From assembly GCA_964610875.1 (NCBI GenBank), contig CAZSWP010000013.1:18872-82871 (forward strand): a stretch of 64,000 nt of DNA, read 5' to 3'. This document shows positions 6,421-16,020 of this stretch, piece by piece; position 1 is the stretch's first letter, and each line of letters opens with the position of its first letter. Below the pieces are notes generated by a model, which was not told the DNA's origin, did no database searches, and was given only the letters and a program-made list of their open reading frames with translations. A program made the translations under genes and the position numbers. The stretch is from an uncultured archaeon. GTDB taxonomy: Archaea; Asgardarchaeota; Thorarchaeia; Thorarchaeales; Thorarchaeaceae.

Positions 6421-6537
6421 AAAATGAGAGTTAGAAGGAAGGGTTTGCACCCATCCTTCTGAAACTATAGGTATACACTCTAGATACAGCGATGGATTAC
6501 TTCCGGTCCCGCTTCTTCGAACTCCTTGCGTGAAACC
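6421..6537 (-). repeat. Displaced actin 3'-end copy ([18 protein letters not shown]) plus terminator hairpin, distal copy
   Basis: Minus-strand translation of 6480-6536 equals the actin C-terminus; near-identical to 10201-10309. Confidence 0.95.
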
Positions 6538-6666: not shown

Positions 6667-7086
6667 ATGGATGTTGATGATGTTATCTCAAAGGTTCGTA
6701 GTTTCGTCAAGAAACAAGATAGTGTCATTGCAGCATATCTTTTTGGCTCACTTGCAAGAGGTACAGATAATCCAATGAGTGATATCGATATTGCATTACT
6801 ACTTACAGAAACAGAAAATGTTATTCCCAGAATTAAGGAGTTCACTGTCACACTCGCAAATATCATAGACACTTCAAATTTGGACCTCATCAGCCTCAAA
6901 CATGCAGACCTGGCTTTGAAATACAATGTCATTCGAGAGGGGATTCTTATCTATGAGAGTGATCCAGTTGAGAGGATTGCTTTTGAACGAAGGACAACCA
7001 CAGAGTATCTGGATATGCTTCCAGTATGGAGAGAGTATGATGAACATATGAAATCCAGACTTCAGGAGTATGCAGCAAGTGATTGA
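6667..7086 (+). CDS. mntA: MNT-family minimal nucleotidyltransferase antitoxin
   Basis: LFGS-x10-DID motif; overlaps the HEPN gene. Confidence 0.9.
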   Translation: MDVDDVISKVRSFVKKQDSVIAAYLFGSLARGTDNPMSDIDIALLLTETENVIPRIKEFTVTLANIIDTSNLDLISLKHADLALKYNVIREGILIYESDPVERIAFERRTTTEYLDMLPVWREYDEHMKSRLQEYAASD

Positions 7087-7492
7087 TAGTGATACAATAT
7101 ATTCTAGACTCTCTACTATTGAACAATGTATGAGAGTGATTGAAAGAACAAAGGAAAAGGGACTTCAACACTACCTCAAAGACTTGGACACCAGATTTCT
7201 GACTGAAAGAGCACTACACTTAGCCATTGAAGCGAGTATAGACATTGCTAATCATATCATTTCAAATCATGGGTTTCGCAGACCAAAAGACTATGCAGAT
7301 ATTTTTCAGATCCTTGGTGAGGAAAAAATCATTACTGAAGACTTAAGCGAGCGCCTAATTCATATGACAAGGTTTCGAACCAGATTAGTACATCTTTATT
7401 CAACGCTGGACAATGAGATTGTGTTCAGCATCTTAGAGAACGAAATATCTGATATTCTTGAATTTACAGCTGTTGTTTCAGAGATGTTGTGA
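7070..7492 (+). CDS. hepT: HEPN (DUF86) RNase toxin
   Basis: ER.LH.AIEA.IDI and R-x4-H-x-Y (FRTRLVHLY) motifs. Confidence 0.9.
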   Translation: MQQVIDSDTIYSRLSTIEQCMRVIERTKEKGLQHYLKDLDTRFLTERALHLAIEASIDIANHIISNHGFRRPKDYADIFQILGEEKIITEDLSERLIHMTRFRTRLVHLYSTLDNEIVFSILENEISDILEFTAVVSEML

Positions 7493-7663: not shown

Positions 7664-8573
7664 ATCCTTTCTTCTTCAATATCACAAACCCAATGATTAC
7701 TATAGCTACTATTACTATACCGATGCCAAGGATTACAATAGTATTGTCCACGAGTGGATATGCAGGGGGAACTGCAGATAGTAATTGTATCAGTTCTCCA
7801 GTCTGGGATATTGAAGCTACAAGGGTCGATTGTATTTTGACATATTCCCAATCATTTGGATTTGCTGTTGATGACACTCTTACAGTTAGATTCGCATAAG
7901 TAAGGAACTCCCAATGCGGTTCAATCAACATTGAATCTGCTTGTTGATTTGTGAAAATCGAATGAACAGGACTATTCCCATAATAGAACGAATAGCCAGT
8001 TTCGTCATATGACCATAGCACGAACTTCAGAGCTGAATAGCCTTCTGAAATTGGAACTTGGAGATTAGCTAATTCCAAATCACGTTCTTCGGTTTCATTA
8101 CACAGAGTGGAGATTGCATTCTTCAATGAGGCTACATAAGAATATTCAGTGATATTATCAATTGAAGTGATTGAAATAATGTTCATAATATTCGTTGAAT
8201 CATATGTTAAATTATATGTACATCGAATTGTGGAGTGCATATAGTGACTTTCATTCAAAGCCATAACTATGACTTGATCACCATAAGCAGTTCGATCAAT
8301 AAAAAGTAATGAATCATTATACCGACTCATCAGATTCCTTACAGTTGTATTTGATAATAGACCTGAGTGAAACTCTAACGCTTGATTCCAAACATCTTCA
8401 CCAAGAAGTAGCACTTCCTGGTCTCCAACATCTAGTATGAAATCGTTTGTACCGTCAGAAAGTATTGTACTTCCCCTGACCATAGTAAAACCTTCAAACG
8501 ATATACATCTAGGTATTGAGTAGCCAGATATCATTAGAAGTAATAGAATTCCAATAATGTATGATTTCTTCAT
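7662..8573 (-). CDS. Secreted, membrane-anchored hypothetical protein
   Basis: N-terminal signal peptide; C-terminal TM followed by KKKG; AT-rich. Confidence 0.7.
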   Translation of the reverse strand: MKKSYIIGILLLLMISGYSIPRCISFEGFTMVRGSTILSDGTNDFILDVGDQEVLLLGEDVWNQALEFHSGLLSNTTVRNLMSRYNDSLLFIDRTAYGDQVIVMALNESHYMHSTIRCTYNLTYDSTNIMNIISITSIDNITEYSYVASLKNAISTLCNETEERDLELANLQVPISEGYSALKFVLWSYDETGYSFYYGNSPVHSIFTNQQADSMLIEPHWEFLTYANLTVRVSSTANPNDWEYVKIQSTLVASISQTGELIQLLSAVPPAYPLVDNTIVILGIGIVIVAIVIIGFVILKKKG

Positions 8574-8585
8574 ATAATCATCTCC

Positions 8586-9908
8586 TCAGTAATTGTTAGG
8601 ACCATCATAGTCTGCAAAGTAATACCAATCCAAATGATAATGCAATTTTCCATTTACAGTGTTACCATCGTAAGGTCCCCAATCCCCTTTTCCATCGTCG
8701 CCACAAGAATATATTCTCAACCAATCGAATGTGACTAAATAATTGGCGGAATAGTACCATGGTGCATTGAATAAATCCATTGTTGCATCACAGTGAATCC
8801 AAGTTCCACTTACATAGGTTTCACACCAAGCGTGACTGAAAGTACCACCCAACCAATTCCCATCATATCCTATCATAAACCTACAAGGAATATTCAGAAC
8901 TCTGAGAAATGAACACATAACAACAGCAAACTCGTCACATACACCCCTCCAATTGTAGTTGTACGTAAACATATCAGCATTAGTGGTTTCATGCGTATCA
9001 CTGTTCATATAATATGTAATCAGACTATTAACAGCAGACGTTAGTACCTCACTAGAATATTCAGGATAGCTAATACAGTTATCTACTAAATACGCTGCTT
9101 GGTATATAATAGGCCATTCTGTAGGCCTAAATAATGCACGTGTGATTGGAATACCAAATCCATCTCCTGAATTACCCTCCCAATAGTAATTAGGATTTTG
9201 TGAAAGAGAACTCATATCGTCATTTGGGGGCAGTCCACCATATGTCTGAAGGTCTGATAAACCATATCGAGAAATGAATTCGTATCCCCATGTTTGACTT
9301 CTGTATACACTATCATAGCGTAGAGTTCCCGGAGCTGTTCTTAGACCATCTGGTTCAATAGAATCTGGAGTAACCCCATCATAATAATATGCTTTTCCAG
9401 ACACTGATACTTGAGCCCTTTTTAAACCGACAGTCGCGGTTGAGGGCAAATAGCAAGAGAGTGTATTTACACTACTGTAGCCAGATGCTCTTACTGACTT
9501 GGTTTTATAGACTTCTCGAATTTCCGAAGGGCCAGGACAATTGTCATAGCCTTCGAATACTAGGGTCACATCTGCGTAAATGTATCCTGAAAGATATACC
9601 GTAAATTGGACATTGAAATTCTCAGTTCTTGTCCATAAGCTGGGAATGGACGCGGATATTTGGAAACTACGTCCAAAGCTGTTAATAGCATCCCCTTCAC
9701 TATGTTGATTACTTGTTTTTTCCGAGTAGAAAAAACCATTCTGATCCTGCTTAACTTTAGGTATATGTTTAATCGAAGGAATTGATTTTCCCAACTCATT
9801 TGATTCAACAAGTGATTTAGGATTTTTCGGAGGCATAGTGATTGGTGATAATAGCAACGTACCACCTATCAACATGAAAATCAATATTGACTTAGCTCTA
9901 TTTTCCAT
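8586..9908 (-). CDS. Secreted transglutaminase-like (papain-fold) protein
   Basis: GVCDEFA...LR.L.IP.R, HAW.E and W..CDAT triad motifs; signal peptide. Confidence 0.85.
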   Translation of the reverse strand: MENRAKSILIFMLIGGTLLLSPITMPPKNPKSLVESNELGKSIPSIKHIPKVKQDQNGFFYSEKTSNQHSEGDAINSFGRSFQISASIPSLWTRTENFNVQFTVYLSGYIYADVTLVFEGYDNCPGPSEIREVYKTKSVRASGYSSVNTLSCYLPSTATVGLKRAQVSVSGKAYYYDGVTPDSIEPDGLRTAPGTLRYDSVYRSQTWGYEFISRYGLSDLQTYGGLPPNDDMSSLSQNPNYYWEGNSGDGFGIPITRALFRPTEWPIIYQAAYLVDNCISYPEYSSEVLTSAVNSLITYYMNSDTHETTNADMFTYNYNWRGVCDEFAVVMCSFLRVLNIPCRFMIGYDGNWLGGTFSHAWCETYVSGTWIHCDATMDLFNAPWYYSANYLVTFDWLRIYSCGDDGKGDWGPYDGNTVNGKLHYHLDWYYFADYDGPNNY

Positions 9909-10200: not shown

Positions 10201-10309
10201 AGAAAATGAGAGTTAGAAGGAAGGGTTTGCACCCATCCTTCTGAAACTATAGGTATACGCTCTAGATACAGCGATGGATTACTTCCGGTCCCGCTTCTTC
10301 GAACTCCTT
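10201..10309 (-). repeat. Displaced actin 3'-end copy ([15 protein letters not shown]) plus terminator hairpin, proximal copy
   Basis: Minus-strand 10262-10309 encodes the last 15 actin residues. Confidence 0.95.
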
Positions 10310-10354: not shown

Positions 10355-13105
10355 TCAGTAGTATTCTTCATTTTTGATTTCCAGATATTCTCTAGTAGAA
10401 GTTGGTAGCTGAACAATATAACTGGATGGCATGTGTTCTTTTATGATTCTCATCAATTGTGAGAATTCTAAAGGATCCATTTCTTCATCAACTTTCATTT
10501 TCAAAAACTGCAATAAAGAATCCAATAACTGATCATCTATAAAAAAGGGTTCAATAGATAACATAATTTCGATTTCTTCATTTTTTGTTTTTGATGACTG
10601 TAGTTTTGAAATATATTCATCTCTTTTTGAAAGGATGGCATCTCGTACTTTTCGTGATTGATAGAGATGGGGAAAAGATACCAATTGCTTTATTGGGTTG
10701 GTATGCTTTATTGGTTTGAGAATCAAACTCTCAACATTGTCGATTACCCTCTTATCTCTACTAGCATGTTTTAAGGAACATTCAAAGGATTTGTGAATAA
10801 TCCAATCAGTGGCATCAACAACGACATTTTCAAATACGATTTTCTTGAATATTTCTCTAGAATGTCCCGAGAAATGAAATCTATGGTCTATTGTCCCTAT
10901 TACATCCAATGGGTTTTCTGAGAGTATTATTTTTTCAAAGAGTGCCTTCAGGATGGAGGGATGTTCAGTAAGAATTCTAAATTTCGAGATTGTTTCTACC
11001 ACTCGCCAAAAGTTATCCTCATCTGTAAACATAGCAATGATATCTTCTATTCTTTCTACAATAATCTCTATAAGCTCGTATTTTCTCTGAAATTTGGGAA
11101 TAAACGATATTGCATTTAAAATGGATAAATCAATATGACTGTTTTTCAAATACTTAATGAAAACCATATTTAGAAGGTTAACTGTTGTGTTATCTTTTGT
11201 TCTAACAAGATTCTCTATTTCATATGTCTTGATTCGTTCCGAATTATCTCGAAGTGAAAGAGAAATTTCAAGTAGTCTTTTGCTAATGGTAGGTTCATTT
11301 TGAGTAGTAATCAATCTTTCTGGACGGTGAGATGTATTTTTAGTTATTTCTTCCAATTGTTTAGCTATAACTTTACCAGCTTGAAGATGGTCTTTCAAAT
11401 AGTCACACGCCCTAATTTGCCGCTCAATTGAATCAAGCGTATACCTCTCTCGAATTAATTTAATTTTAGATGGGAATTGCTCAATGAAGCCATCAATGCG
11501 ATTCATTAGCCATTGGTTATCATAGAAGTCTGGTACAGAAACTACTTCTCTGATAAATGAGATGAACTCAACAATATTATCTTTATATACAACTTGCTCT
11601 TTTTTTAGTTTCAGTTTGAGAACCAATTCTCTACGAAAACATACATGGCGCATTACCTGACATATTTTGGATAATGTCCAGTACATCGGATATTTCCTGA
11701 AGGAATTAACAACCAAACTGACTACATCCTCCTTTTTTTCATTGGGAGCAACAGAATAGAGAATATTCGCATATTTTGCTAGGCCCCTCCCTTCATGATA
11801 CCTATCAATCTGGCACTTGAGTTTTTCATAACTTTTTTTTGATTCAGAAAGTATTCCTATATAATATGGGCAAGCATTTACATATTCAAGTAAAGCCTCA
11901 GGGTTGACAGAAGTTGTTATGGCTTTAAGTAACTCATCTTGAGTCAATGTTGCGGATGTGTTTCCTGGAATCAAATGAAGAGCAGTTTCAACAATCATTT
12001 GCTCGAAGCTGCTACTAGGAAGATGTCTCCTATTAGGAGAGGCTTTCGAATCTCTTTTTGTAGCATAAAAAAAGCCATCTAGGAAATTAGATAATCCAGC
12101 TGCTGTAATAACATCAGGTCCTTCGGACTGTTCTGCAACTTTCCATAGAAGCAGAATAGATGCGGCACGTCTTTGCCAGATTTTACTTTTCAGTCCATTT
12201 CTAATTCTTTGTATCATAGACGGATTCTCTATGACCATCTGAACAATCTCATGTATAGCTTCATCTGTAGGCTCATATTTTTCACTATTATCTGTAAGAT
12301 CAAATCCATACAATGTAAATTTCTTTGCAATCCATCTGAGAATTCGCCACACTGGAATGTCTATTTTATGTTTGATTGCATAGAGAATTAGTTCTGCGTG
12401 AATCTTATTCGAATTGACTATCTCGATTACTGCATTTCTGATTTTGGGACTAACATAATACTGGGCTAGATAACAAGCGCCAGCTGATATTTCTGTATCA
12501 GAGTGTTTTATGCAGCGAAGCAATTCATCTGGACTAATTGGTATCGACAGATTGTCAACCCATTTTTTCATAGCCACATTATTTCCATGGAACGGGTCTC
12601 TACAACCATATCTCATTATTTCTTCTATAGCTTTGCTAGTATTACGTTTTGATTTTAGTAAGATCACCTCTGAACACAAATCATAGTCATCACCCATATT
12701 TGACACTGAGTAGTAATCACCTGGATCCTCACCTAAGCCTTCTAAAACTGCAATGGTTCCTTCGTTCAGTCCACCCCATTCTTTGTATAGATAGTTTTGT
12801 AATTTAGGAATCACTTCTTTACCCATAGATATTATTCCATTTACAATTCTATCATCAACACAGCTGCCACAATCCCACTTTCTATGAATCCAGTACAACT
12901 CTTTCACAAGTTTGTCAAAGGCATCTAATCCTTGAAGTTGAACAATAGCTTCTATAGCAAGTTCTACCAAGTCACTATCTCCTGCCCATGGACTAACCCA
13001 ATCCAGAAGAGATAGAAAACTCTCCATTTTCGAAACGATTTCAGTTCTATTATATCTGATTGCTATTCTGACAGCAGACTCCAAAGCTTCATAGCTTGTA
13101 TCCAC
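10355..13105 (-). CDS. Large helical (HEAT-like) hypothetical protein
   Basis: 916-aa AT-rich ORF; in-frame TAA at 13109-13111 just upstream. Confidence 0.65.
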   Translation of the reverse strand: MDTSYEALESAVRIAIRYNRTEIVSKMESFLSLLDWVSPWAGDSDLVELAIEAIVQLQGLDAFDKLVKELYWIHRKWDCGSCVDDRIVNGIISMGKEVIPKLQNYLYKEWGGLNEGTIAVLEGLGEDPGDYYSVSNMGDDYDLCSEVILLKSKRNTSKAIEEIMRYGCRDPFHGNNVAMKKWVDNLSIPISPDELLRCIKHSDTEISAGACYLAQYYVSPKIRNAVIEIVNSNKIHAELILYAIKHKIDIPVWRILRWIAKKFTLYGFDLTDNSEKYEPTDEAIHEIVQMVIENPSMIQRIRNGLKSKIWQRRAASILLLWKVAEQSEGPDVITAAGLSNFLDGFFYATKRDSKASPNRRHLPSSSFEQMIVETALHLIPGNTSATLTQDELLKAITTSVNPEALLEYVNACPYYIGILSESKKSYEKLKCQIDRYHEGRGLAKYANILYSVAPNEKKEDVVSLVVNSFRKYPMYWTLSKICQVMRHVCFRRELVLKLKLKKEQVVYKDNIVEFISFIREVVSVPDFYDNQWLMNRIDGFIEQFPSKIKLIRERYTLDSIERQIRACDYLKDHLQAGKVIAKQLEEITKNTSHRPERLITTQNEPTISKRLLEISLSLRDNSERIKTYEIENLVRTKDNTTVNLLNMVFIKYLKNSHIDLSILNAISFIPKFQRKYELIEIIVERIEDIIAMFTDEDNFWRVVETISKFRILTEHPSILKALFEKIILSENPLDVIGTIDHRFHFSGHSREIFKKIVFENVVVDATDWIIHKSFECSLKHASRDKRVIDNVESLILKPIKHTNPIKQLVSFPHLYQSRKVRDAILSKRDEYISKLQSSKTKNEEIEIMLSIEPFFIDDQLLDSLLQFLKMKVDEEMDPLEFSQLMRIIKEHMPSSYIVQLPTSTREYLEIKNEEYY

Positions 13106-14477: not shown

Positions 14478-14794
14478 GTTCGTCGATAGCTCCTAGACTA
14501 TACAGGAATCTCCCAGTCAGCAGTGAACCGATGTCCCTGTGCAATCAGGTTCCGTAACCACTCTAATAAGAACCGATTAAGTGTAGACTTGTTCTTGATG
14601 TCAACTGTGTCGGGCGTAGGATAGGAATCGCCAAGCTGGAGTGCCTTGGCAGACTATTTAAGCCCCACACGAATTACTAAGTAATAAAGAGGTCTCACTG
14701 CACGGTCATGTGAATCGCCAAGTTCTATGCGCTGTGTGGTGGGGCCACCTTCCAGCTATCCATAGAATACTCTTTCTTTTCAAAAAGGCAATGA

Positions 14795-14835
14795 GAAAAA
14801 TAGATTGTGAAGGTGAGCCTTGCAGCTCTACCTTC
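14795..14835 (-). terminator. Hairpin plus U-run after the actin stop
   Basis: GAAGGTAGAGC-TGCAAG-GCTCACCTTC then ...TATTTTT; homologous hairpin in each displaced copy. Confidence 0.6.
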
Positions 14836-14850
14836 TAAACTAACAACCCG

Positions 14851-16020
14851 TTAGATACATCGGTGAATTACTTCAGGTCCAGCTTCCTCAAACTCTTTCC
14901 GAGATACCCACATTTACCACGCAGCAACGGAAATCGGTGCCGCTTTTTGGAACGTTTTCAGCGAAGCTAGAATGCTTCCGCCAATCCAGACAGAGTATTG
15001 TCTCTCGGGTGGAGCGATGATGCGTACCTCGATGTTCTCTGGGACTAGTTCGGTGATCTCCTTATGGAGTCGTTCCTTGAGTCCTGGGAACATGGTTGAA
15101 CCGCCTGATAGTACAATGTTGGCGTACAGGTCACGTCGCAAGTCTACATCGCAAGCCTTGATCGACTCGACAATGTGTTCATCCAGTGGGATTGAGTCTA
15201 GACCTATTGCGCTTGGGTTGAAGAACAGCTCGGGTGCTTGGAACCTCTCTGCACCAACAGTGATTACTTCACCGTCTGGTAGCATGTAGGGTTTGTCAAC
15301 ACCAGCCTTGTCGGCCACTGTCCTCTCGCGCTCTGGGTCAAGAGCAACGTAACAGAGTTTCTCTTTTACATCACGGACAATCTCTTTCTCTGCACCGCTC
15401 ACGAATGAGTAACCTCTCTGTCTGAGAAGTCTGCGCAGGTACTCGGTGATGTCACGACCAGCAAGGTCGATTCGTTTGATTGCGTGGTTGATTGAGAAAC
15501 CTTCGTACACAGGTACAATGTGTGTGACACCGTCACCAGAGTCGATGACGAGACCTGTGGTTCTTCCGGATGCGTATAGTGATAGCACAGCCTGTGTTGC
15601 GACATAGACGGCAGGTATGCCGAAGTTGTCGAACATGACAGATGCCATGCGTTCACGATTCTCTCTTGGGTTGTATGGTGCTTCAGTGAGAAGCACGGGG
15701 TTCTCGCTGGGATCAACTTTCAAGTCGTTGTAGAAAGTGTAACTCCAGATTTTTTCGATTGCGTCCCAGTCGTCAATTACACCGTGTGTAATTGGGTAGA
15801 CGAGTCTGAGCACACCACGGAGGTTGATTGCCTCTTCACCAATGTAGTAATCCCTTGTGTAGTGATCGACGTCCGTCATAATGGACTCGTATCGTGGATA
15901 TCCAATTAGTGTAGGCCATACACTTCGTGGCTGATCTTCACCAGCGTAACCGTTCTTACTCAGGCCAGTACCATTGTCAATGACAATTGGTTTACTGCCC
16001 ATGTAATCTTCCTCAGCCAT
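14851..16020 (-). CDS. Asgard actin (Lokiactin-type), 379 aa after removal of a 30-nt intron; exons 16020-14945 and 14914-14851
   Basis: [32 protein letters not shown] and [12 protein letters not shown] motifs; the conserved tail [20 protein letters not shown] resumes in frame after the insertion. Confidence 0.95.
14915..14944 (-). other. Candidate 30-nt BHB-type intron in actin mRNA
   Basis: Contains an in-frame TAA; internal stem GCGGCA/UGCUGC; central helix CCAA/GUGG flanked by 3-nt bulges AAA and UAA; removal gives FQK-MWV. Confidence 0.8.

What the first reader, a model, noticed from the sequence alone, without database searches (positions are those of the whole stretch)
14915..14944. 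Asgard actin gene interrupted by a 30-nt BHB-type micro-intron
Seen: the mRNA strand reads ...TTC CAA AAA [GCGGCACCGATTTCCGTTGCTGCGTGGTAA] ATG TGG GTA.... The 30-nt insert carries an in-frame stop, and the canonical tail [20 protein letters not shown] follows in frame. The region folds as helix CCAA/GUGG (3 of 4 pairs), bulge AAA, intron stem GCGGCA/UGCUGC, bulge UAA. Established: archaeal tRNA-splicing endonuclease cuts after the second nucleotide of each 3-nt bulge. Applying that rule (AA|A, UA|A) removes exactly 30 nt and restores FQK-MWV (379 aa). Archaeal mRNA introns are known mainly from crenarchaeal cbf5. Inference: an Asgard cytoskeletal gene depends on mRNA splicing.
Basis: partly seen in the sequence, partly recalled or inferred. 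Interest (0 to 1): 0.96.

Follow-up and report, generated by a model that had tools for sequence, protein, structure and literature searches.

The report
tRNA-type mini-intron splitting Thorarchaeota actin
The only actin gene of this Thorarchaeota (Asgard) archaeon is broken by a 30-base insert shaped like a tRNA intron, so full-length actin very probably needs the tRNA-splicing enzymes to cut and rejoin the mRNA, which papers I could search document for only one archaeal protein gene (cbf5).

Summary

- **The break:** window 14915-14944 (minus strand) is a 30-nt insert with an in-frame TAA. It sits between actin residue 359 (FQK) and the conserved 20-residue tail ([20 protein letters not shown]).
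- **The shape:** it forms a relaxed bulge-helix-bulge (BHB) motif. Cutting after the second nucleotide of each 3-nt bulge removes exactly these 30 nt.
- **Conservation:** the same intron sits at the same codon in six Thorarchaeota genera, with compensatory base changes. In five of them only splicing rebuilds the conserved Lys codon (AA|A).
- **Selection:** the tail downstream of the stop is under strong purifying selection.
- **More cases:** five further 30-33-nt inserts in four other Asgard genomes, at three other actin sites, obey the same cut rule; three are 31 nt long, which excludes readthrough for them. hutU (in this window) and a peroxiredoxin gene (same genome) carry such introns too.
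- **Machinery:** the genome encodes a two-subunit EndA and RtcB.
- **What is missing:** RNA evidence for this gene. The public RNA contigs I could lay came only from relatives.
- **Distribution:** the intron is patchy among sister species, so it was lost precisely many times or it spreads.

This scan has already flagged the same phenomenon on other DNA, actin included. I found no published report.

The parts
14945..16020 (-). Actin exon 1 (Met1 to the first two bases of the Lys359 codon)
   Evidence: ORF and Pfam Actin E 1.4e-122, profile 5-390; exon end set by the BHB cut AA|A
14915..14944 (-). 30-nt BHB-type intron carrying the in-frame TAA (its last two bases plus the first base of exon 2)
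   Evidence: present in DNA contig of run X1
14851..14914 (-). Actin exon 2: third base of the Lys359 codon, [20 protein letters not shown] and the stop
   Evidence: Pfam Actin profile 390-407; 15 of 20 codon columns vary only synonymously among intron-bearing genes
14947..14950 (-). Central helix H, exon-1 strand (CCAA); followed by the 5' bulge AA|A (14946-14944)
   Evidence: pairs with 14917-14920; covaries in relatives (CCAG/CUGG, UCAA/UUGA)
14917..14920 (-). Central helix H, intron strand (GUGG); followed by the 3' bulge UA|A (14916-14914)
14921..14943 (-). Intron hairpin h' (GCGGCA/UGCUGC plus two inner pairs, 5-nt loop)
   Evidence: MFE fold; 100% of cells paired in six sequences, 4 of 8 pairs with changes on both sides; recovered by RNAalifold
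34852..34881 (+). Second intron of the same kind in the same window: 30 nt splitting the urocanate hydratase (hutU) motif YGQ|MTAGGW
   Evidence: (sequence): H ACGG/CCGC 3 of 4, bulges AC|A and AA|A, 9-bp stem, splicing restores ANYGQMTAGGW

Best explanation
[quoted passage not shown] In the transcript, the last bases of exon 1 (CCAA) pair with the 3' part of the intron (GUGG) to form the 4-position central helix. A 3-nt bulge (AA|A) separates this helix from the intron hairpin, and a second 3-nt bulge or loop (UA|A) follows on the other strand. The heterotetrameric (alpha-beta)2 splicing endonuclease EndA cuts after the second nucleotide of each bulge. RtcB then joins the exons, and probably circularises the 30-mer. 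The junction reads CAA AA|A AUG and the message encodes full-length 379-aa actin. Unspliced mRNA would give a 368-aa protein that lacks the conserved C-terminal 20 residues. Shown here: the geometry, its conservation and covariation, selection on exon 2, the presence of the enzymes, and sister cases. Inferred: the cutting and joining themselves.
For: (1) Canonical cut-site geometry falls exactly at the ORF-restoring boundaries; the chance frequency at a fixed site and length is 5.2e-4 for the window's own motif and 6.7e-6 for the motif quality of four of the five relatives (H 4/4, stem of 9 or more; G019's uninterrupted stem run is 6).
(2) The same 30-nt intron sits at the same codon in 6 of 86 genomes of the family, in six genera.
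(3) In five of them the unspliced reading is FQN, and only AA|A splicing restores the invariant Lys.
(4) Covariation: 93.8% of cells are paired against 31-44% when partners are slid; 6 pairs change on both sides against 1.3 +/- 1.0 in shuffles (0 of 500); H changes CCAG/CUGG to UCAA/UUGA. RNAalifold finds the same H, 5' bulge and stem unaided.
(5) Exon 2 after the stop shows 148 synonymous against 5 nonsynonymous pairwise codon differences.
(6) Independent introns obey the same rule at other actin sites in another Asgard family (30, 31, 31 and 33 nt) and in a further species (30 nt). hutU in this window and a peroxiredoxin gene in this genome carry them as well.
(7) The genome has an EndA catalytic subunit (TIGR00324, 100 bits) and a beta-like subunit. 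The catalytic subunit aligns without gaps to solved chains 3p1z_B and 3ajv_B (E 1.7e-44). RtcB is present. Asgard EndA is reported as (alpha-beta)2 with the L1 loop that gives broad specificity (PMC5829648).
(8) Twenty of 35 tRNA calls carry introns, many of 30-36 nt.
(9) This is the only actin match in the genome.
Against: There is no RNA-level evidence for this gene: all RNA contigs laid differed from the window by 5% or more, and those crossing the junction read like intronless relatives. The window's own motif is the weakest of the six (A.G in H, one G.U in the stem). The exon-exon helix h is poor in the canonical register (1 of 5 pairs), so RNAalifold places the 3' cut site in a 7-nt loop. 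The local fold is no more stable than shuffled sequence (z = 0.16). A genome-wide enrichment test had no power.
Confidence: 0.88

Rival explanations
1. Translational recoding rather than RNA splicing. The ribosome reads through the stop (giving a 10-residue insertion), hops over the insert (T4 gene 60 type bypass), or terminates and restarts at the adjacent ATG to make the 20-residue tail as a separate peptide.
For: The insert is a multiple of 3. A stop is directly followed by ATG. A hairpin follows the last sense codon, as in bypass systems. Sec recoding of UGA exists in Thorarchaeia (PMC9723677).
Against: The stop here is UAA, not UGA or UAG. Stop type and position vary among the six genes (TAA, TGA, one codon earlier in G022). 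Unspliced reading replaces the invariant Lys by Asn in five of six. Changes inside the insert follow RNA pairing, not peptide conservation. No matching take-off and landing codons restore the MWV frame (sequence). Sister actin introns of 31 nt, and exon 2 starts without ATG (UAC, UUC), cannot be read through or reinitiated.
Confidence: 0.04
2. The gene is decaying or makes only a truncated 368-aa actin. The downstream tail is a relic and nothing removes the insert.
For: The ORF as called ends at 368 aa. The window's own motif is the weakest of the six. No spliced RNA was seen.
Against: The tail keeps its amino-acid sequence through saturated synonymous divergence across six genera. The body of the gene is also under purifying selection (116-169 synonymous against 11-31 nonsynonymous differences). 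It is the only actin match in a 95% complete genome.
Confidence: 0.03
3. A DNA-level insertion: a miniature mobile element or a scar of element integration at the actin 3' end. It is tolerated or removed by some mechanism other than EndA.
For: The actin 3' end is an integration hot spot: two degenerate copies of the tail lie 4.5 and 8.4 kb downstream and start 6-8 nt after the 3' splice site. The insert is flanked by AA/AA. Its distribution among sister species is patchy.
Against: The tail copies contain no intron sequence. Pairing between exon 1 and the insert covaries, which points to an RNA-level constraint. The same architecture occurs at unrelated sites in actin, hutU and peroxiredoxin without shared sequence. 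Thirty nucleotides is far too small for a group I or II intron.
Confidence: 0.04
4. Assembly or sequencing artefact.
For: The source is a metagenome-assembled genome with 5.8% estimated contamination.
Against: Logan's independent contig of run X1 carries the insert with 0 differences. Five other assemblies from other studies carry homologous inserts, as does one JGI metagenome contig (L090).
Confidence: 0.01

Closest known systems
BHB intron of the cbf5 (pseudouridine synthase) pre-mRNA in Crenarchaeota (Watanabe 2002; Yokobori et al. 2009, PMC2738675)
   Same: A small intron inside a protein-coding sequence with an unconventional (relaxed) BHB. Predicted cuts fall between the second and third bulge residues and coincide with the coding junction. 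Cleavage is by a hetero-oligomeric endonuclease. The distribution among related species is patchy and interpreted as gain and loss.
   Different: A different gene (actin, a eukaryotic signature protein) and a different phylum (Thorarchaeota, Asgard). The size class is a uniform ~30 nt. There are several independent sites in actin across Asgard families and several genes per genome. cbf5 splicing has cDNA and in vitro support; this intron has none yet.
Archaeal tRNA BHB introns, including the intron-rich tRNA genes of Asgard archaea (PMC5829648; bioRxiv 10.64898/2026.10.13.758758)
   Same: The same motif (two 3-nt bulges around a 4-bp helix), the same presumed enzymes (EndA, RtcB) and the same size class as many tRNA introns of this genome (30-36 nt).
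   Different: The host RNA is an mRNA, so the exon half of the motif must be built from coding sequence. There is no tRNA body to help recognition. The exon-exon helix h is weak (HBh' type).
BHB intron in the 5' UTR of Haloferax volcanii HVO_1309 (Schwarz et al. 2020, PMC7714728)
   Same: An EndA substrate within an mRNA, found as a circular RNA and cut in vitro.
   Different: It lies in the untranslated leader (46 nt) and does not interrupt the reading frame. The host is a euryarchaeon with a homodimeric enzyme.

Membership tests
Archaeal BHB (splicing-endonuclease) intron | [quoted passage not shown] | tested here: met
   Relatives have 4 of 4 pairs with 3-nt bulges; this window has 3 of 4 plus A.G (relaxed form)
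Archaeal BHB (splicing-endonuclease) intron | Flanking helices h' (intron) and h (exon-exon) | tested here: inconclusive
   h' is present: 6-9 bp, 100% paired, covarying. h in the canonical register has only 1-2 of 5 pairs. RNAalifold places an exon-exon helix 4 nt further out. This makes it an HBh' relaxed type, a class reported as cleavable by (alpha-beta)2 enzymes (PMC5829648).
Archaeal BHB (splicing-endonuclease) intron | Cutting after the second nucleotide of each bulge yields the functional product | tested here: met
   The rule removes exactly 30 nt and restores FQK|MWV. It holds in all 11 cases examined, including 31- and 33-nt introns, and in the further 30-nt intron of L298.
Archaeal BHB (splicing-endonuclease) intron | Host encodes a splicing endonuclease able to cut relaxed motifs, and an RNA ligase | tested here: met
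   EndA catalytic (191 aa) and beta-like (207 aa) subunits and RtcB are present. The catalytic subunit aligns without gaps to 3p1z_B, including the N-terminal loop region. That this loop is the L1/CSL loop is my reading from PMC5829648 and from memory.
Archaeal BHB (splicing-endonuclease) intron | Spliced RNA, circular intron, or in vitro cleavage observed | not testable with these tools
Group I / group II self-splicing intron | Catalytic RNA core of hundreds of nucleotides | tested here: not met
   The insert is 30 nt.
Stop-codon recoding (Sec/Pyl) or programmed bypass | A defined recoded stop (UGA or UAG) or matched take-off and landing codons, with a conserved inserted peptide | tested here: not met
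   The stop is UAA here and varies in relatives. Lys is replaced by Asn in the unspliced reading. The 31-nt sister introns break the frame.
Lokiactin / Asgard actin (host gene) | Full-length match to the Actin family with the conserved C-terminal helix | tested here: met
   Pfam PF00022 E 1.4e-122 plus the tail at profile 390-407; 90-96% identity to Thorarchaeota actins.

The most novel reading that the evidence does not exclude
These micro-introns are still mobile. The actin intron moves between lineages, or is re-inserted at the same site, by reversal of the EndA/RtcB reaction or by recombination of short patches. On this reading its presence in one of two sister species in three genera, and unpaired positions that diverge at half the silent-site rate, reflect recent spread rather than a dozen or more precise losses. 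That would be an active process of intron gain in protein-coding genes in the closest archaeal relatives of eukaryotes.
Probability: 0.2. Interest if true: 0.9.

Novelty: new member of a known kind. Interest (0 to 1): 0.8.

Why it matters
In the literature I could search, splicing of an archaeal coding sequence by the tRNA-splicing enzymes is documented for one gene, cbf5 in Crenarchaeota. Here the sole actin gene of an Asgard archaeon appears to depend on it. Actin is the emblematic eukaryote-like cytoskeletal protein.

The same kind of intron sits at four different sites in Asgard actins and in at least two other genes of this genome. If RNA data confirm this, mRNA splicing is a routine step of gene expression in the archaeal lineage nearest to eukaryotes, carried out by enzymes unrelated to the spliceosome.

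There is also a practical consequence. Gene callers truncate or split such genes: the ORF as called here is 368 aa instead of 379. This affects inventories of eukaryotic signature proteins. The gain-or-loss pattern among sister species offers a tractable system for studying how introns spread or disappear.

Tried and rejected
- **RNA evidence:** No part of the window's own actin mRNA was covered, so nothing can be said about splicing.
- **Metagenome pattern scan:** After filtering, only one true actin hit remained (L090), with an intron identical to G014's.
- **Genome-wide test:** I asked whether BHB-predicted cut sites restore ORFs more often than cut sites shifted by 1-2 nt. With 60-80 chance candidates per length class at every offset the test has no power, so it gives no estimate of how many introns the genome holds.
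- **Pattern for the DWTA|MEK site in genome contigs:** only a chance hit in Marinobacter. The G371 genome seems not to be in that collection.
- **Single-sequence folding:** z = 0.16, uninformative for so small a motif.
- **Lower-scoring actin matches in G268, G303 and G304:** these are divergent paralogues, not interrupted genes. G074 and G077 are cut by contig ends.
- **Point stops in G260 and G139 actins:** single-codon substitutions, not introns.
- **Gain versus loss:** not resolved.
- **Integrase search:** Pfam found no integrase between the actin-tail repeats.

Full report
**Observation**

The minus strand of window 14851-16020 carries an actin gene. A 368-aa ORF (14914-16020) ends in ...[15 protein letters not shown] 20-codon ORF for [20 protein letters not shown] follows it directly in frame. 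Pfam Actin matches residues 10-360 to profile positions 5-390 (E 1.4e-122), and the small ORF continues at profile 390-407. Exactly 30 nt are therefore extra. The spliced product would be 359 + 20 = 379 aa. The insert is in the DNA: an independently assembled contig of DNA run X1 covers 14700-14947 with no difference. It is the only actin-family match in the 95% complete genome. Record titles of near-identical genes place the organism in Thorarchaeota.

**Geometry**

In the canonical archaeal motif, the last six bases of exon 1 are four bases of the central helix H plus two bulge bases. The last six bases of the intron are the other strand of H plus two bulge bases. Here H is CCAA/GUGG (three pairs and A.G). 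The bulges are AA|A and UA|A. The intron hairpin GCGGCA/UGCUGC, plus two inner pairs, starts right after the 5' bulge. Across this genome, geometry of at least this quality at a fixed position and length of 30 occurs at a frequency of 5.2e-4. The quality seen in four of the five relatives (H 4 of 4, stem of 9 or more) occurs at 6.7e-6; G019 has H 4 of 4 with an uninterrupted stem run of 6. The exon-exon helix h is weak in the canonical register. RNAalifold places it a few bases further out, which leaves the 3' cut site in a looser loop. This is a relaxed HBh'-type motif.

**Conservation in Thorarchaeota**

A pattern search of all 86 genomes of the family found the 30-nt insert at the same codon in six genomes of six genera: G000, G012, G014, G019, G022 and G023. 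One JGI metagenome contig carries it as well.

- In five of the six, the unspliced reading is FQN. Only joining AA to the A that follows the 3' cut rebuilds the invariant Lys codon.
- On the six-sequence alignment, 93.8% of cells pair, against 31-44% when partners are slid.
- Six pairs change on both sides, against 1.3 +/- 1.0 in shuffles (0 of 500).
- H itself changes from CCAG/CUGG to UCAA/UUGA, and the intron stem is 100% paired.
- RNAalifold recovers H, the 5' bulge and the stem without my structure.

**Selection on exon 2**

Among the six intron-bearing genes, 15 of the 20 tail codon columns vary only synonymously and one changes an amino acid. Pairwise, that is 148 synonymous against 5 nonsynonymous codon differences. 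Four-fold sites are near saturation at 0.41-0.63. The part of the gene behind the in-frame stop is therefore translated in frame.

**Sister cases**

A phylum-wide actin profile search and inspection found further inserts in another Asgard family.

| Genome / locus | Site | Length | Central helix H |
|---|---|---|---|
| G371 | DWTA\|MEK | 30 nt | GGCU/AGCU |
| G244 | RRE\|YKE | 31 nt | CGUG/CUCG |
| G256 | RRE\|YKE | 33 nt | CGCG/CGCG |
| L298 | RRE\|YKE | 30 nt | CGCG/CACG |
| G256 (second intron) | QV\|IHR | 31 nt | AAGU/GCUU |

In every case, cutting after the second base of each 3-nt bulge gives exactly the intron that restores the conserved protein. The three 31-nt inserts (G244, and the second insert of G256) break the frame, so readthrough cannot rescue those genes.

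Following leads from earlier notes of this scan, I verified two more in this genome. One is a 30-nt intron in hutU at window 34852-34881 that splits YGQ|MTAGGW. The other is a 33-nt intron that splits the peroxiredoxin FTPVCT|TEF motif on contig C10, with a perfect H ATGC/GCAT.

**Machinery**

The genome encodes a 191-aa EndA catalytic subunit (TIGR00324, 100 bits against a cut-off of 59.6) and a 207-aa paralogue that matches the structural half and the beta-subunit models. It also encodes RtcB. The catalytic subunit aligns end to end without gaps with solved chains 3p1z_B and 3ajv_B (E 1.7e-44). I recall these as the Aeropyrum pernix heterotetramer, but the tool output does not name the organism. 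PMC5829648 reports that Asgard archaea have the (alpha-beta)2 enzyme with the L1 loop associated with broad substrate specificity. Twenty of 35 tRNA calls in this genome carry introns, many of 30-36 nt. This fits the preprint on heavily interrupted Asgard tRNA genes.

**RNA evidence**

There is none for this gene. The RNA runs hold only relatives' actin transcripts (5% or more divergent). Contigs that cross the junction read CA(A/G)AAGATGTGG, the same as intronless relatives that are also present as DNA. They cannot tell splicing from an intronless gene.

**Distribution**

The actin tree follows the genus labels. G023 (intron) is sister to G008 (none) and G019 (intron) to G004 (none), both at 100/99 support; G022 pairs with G007. 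A single clade of intron bearers is rejected (AU p = 1.5e-15). The gene is therefore inherited vertically, and the intron was either lost precisely many times or moves between lineages. Unpaired intron positions differ at 26% against 56% at four-fold sites in five lineages, while G019's intron is as diverged as silent sites. With ten sites and dependent pairs this is only a hint, and I leave it open.

**Rivals**

- **Recoding:** the stop is UAA here and varies in type and position among relatives. Lys becomes Asn in the unspliced reading. Changes inside the insert follow base pairing rather than peptide conservation. No take-off and landing codons restore the frame.
- **Decay:** contradicted by selection on exon 2 and by the gene being the only actin.
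- **Integration scar:** considered because two degenerate copies of the actin tail lie at 10263-10306 and 6481-6524 and begin 6-8 nt after the 3' splice site. They hold no intron sequence.
- **Artefact:** excluded by independent assemblies.

**Novelty**

PMC7714728 (2020) states that cbf5 is the one reported BHB intron in an archaeal mRNA, and adds a 5' UTR intron in Haloferax. PMC2738675 says splicing was not confirmed for genes other than cbf5, only predicted. Five searches of the held library found no report of introns in Asgard actin or other Asgard protein genes.

Earlier notes of this same scan do describe the phenomenon on other DNA, including actin genes of Odin-, Hermod-, Loki- and Thor-type genomes. 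Some other genes there have RNA support. I used those notes as leads and tested what I cite.

I file the finding as a new member of a known kind: an EndA-type pre-mRNA intron. It has high interest because of the gene, the lineage and the apparent generality.

Noticed in passing
window 34852-34881 (+): A 30-nt BHB intron with an in-frame stop splits the urocanate hydratase (hutU) motif YGQ|MTAGGW. H is ACGG/CCGC (3 of 4), the bulges are AC|A and AA|A, and the stem has 9 bp. It shares no sequence with the actin intron.
   Followed up: yes
G000 contig C10, + strand, about 8466-8498 (outside the window): The peroxiredoxin catalytic motif FTPVCT|TEF is split by a 33-nt insert with an in-frame TGA, a perfect central helix ATGC/GCAT and bulges AC|T and AA|A. 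Splicing restores the motif.
   Followed up: yes
window 6481-6524 and 10263-10306 (-): Two degenerate direct copies (84% over the core 44 nt; similarity extends on both sides) of the last part of actin exon 2 plus about 30 nt beyond the stop. They resemble each other more than the working tail. They bracket small islands holding an MNT/HepT toxin-antitoxin pair (6667-7492), a transglutaminase-like gene (8586-9908) and a 916-aa ORF with no Pfam match (10355-13105). No integrase was found. The pattern looks like repeated element integration into the actin 3' end, and the repeat begins 6-8 nt downstream of the 3' splice site.
   Followed up: partly
L013 (G020:C56), + strand, second hit of VIHRCI: An intronless relative also has a second partial copy of the actin 3' end (...LEEVGHEVIHRCI*) near its actin gene. 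The actin tail therefore seems to be a recurrent integration site in Thorarchaeota.
   Followed up: no
L197 (G256:C5), + strand, last 200 nt of actin: One actin gene of another Asgard family carries two BHB micro-introns (33 and 31 nt) only 24 nt apart, which leaves a 24-nt micro-exon (YKEMGPQV).
   Followed up: yes
L204 (G260:C96) and L191 (G139:C275): Two otherwise intact actin genes have a single in-frame stop in place of a conserved residue (TGA for Gly in QLK*VLK; TAG for Tyr in PAL*ISMQ) with no insert. Possible explanations are sequencing error, pseudogene or recoding; I did not examine them.
   Followed up: no
alignment A1 columns 18-23 with 66-71 (window about 14904-14909 with 14952-14957): RNAalifold predicts a 6-bp exon-exon helix (AGACCU/GGGUCU in relatives) a few bases outside the BHB core. 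It might substitute for the missing canonical helix h. The pairs lie in coding sequence and hardly vary.
   Followed up: no
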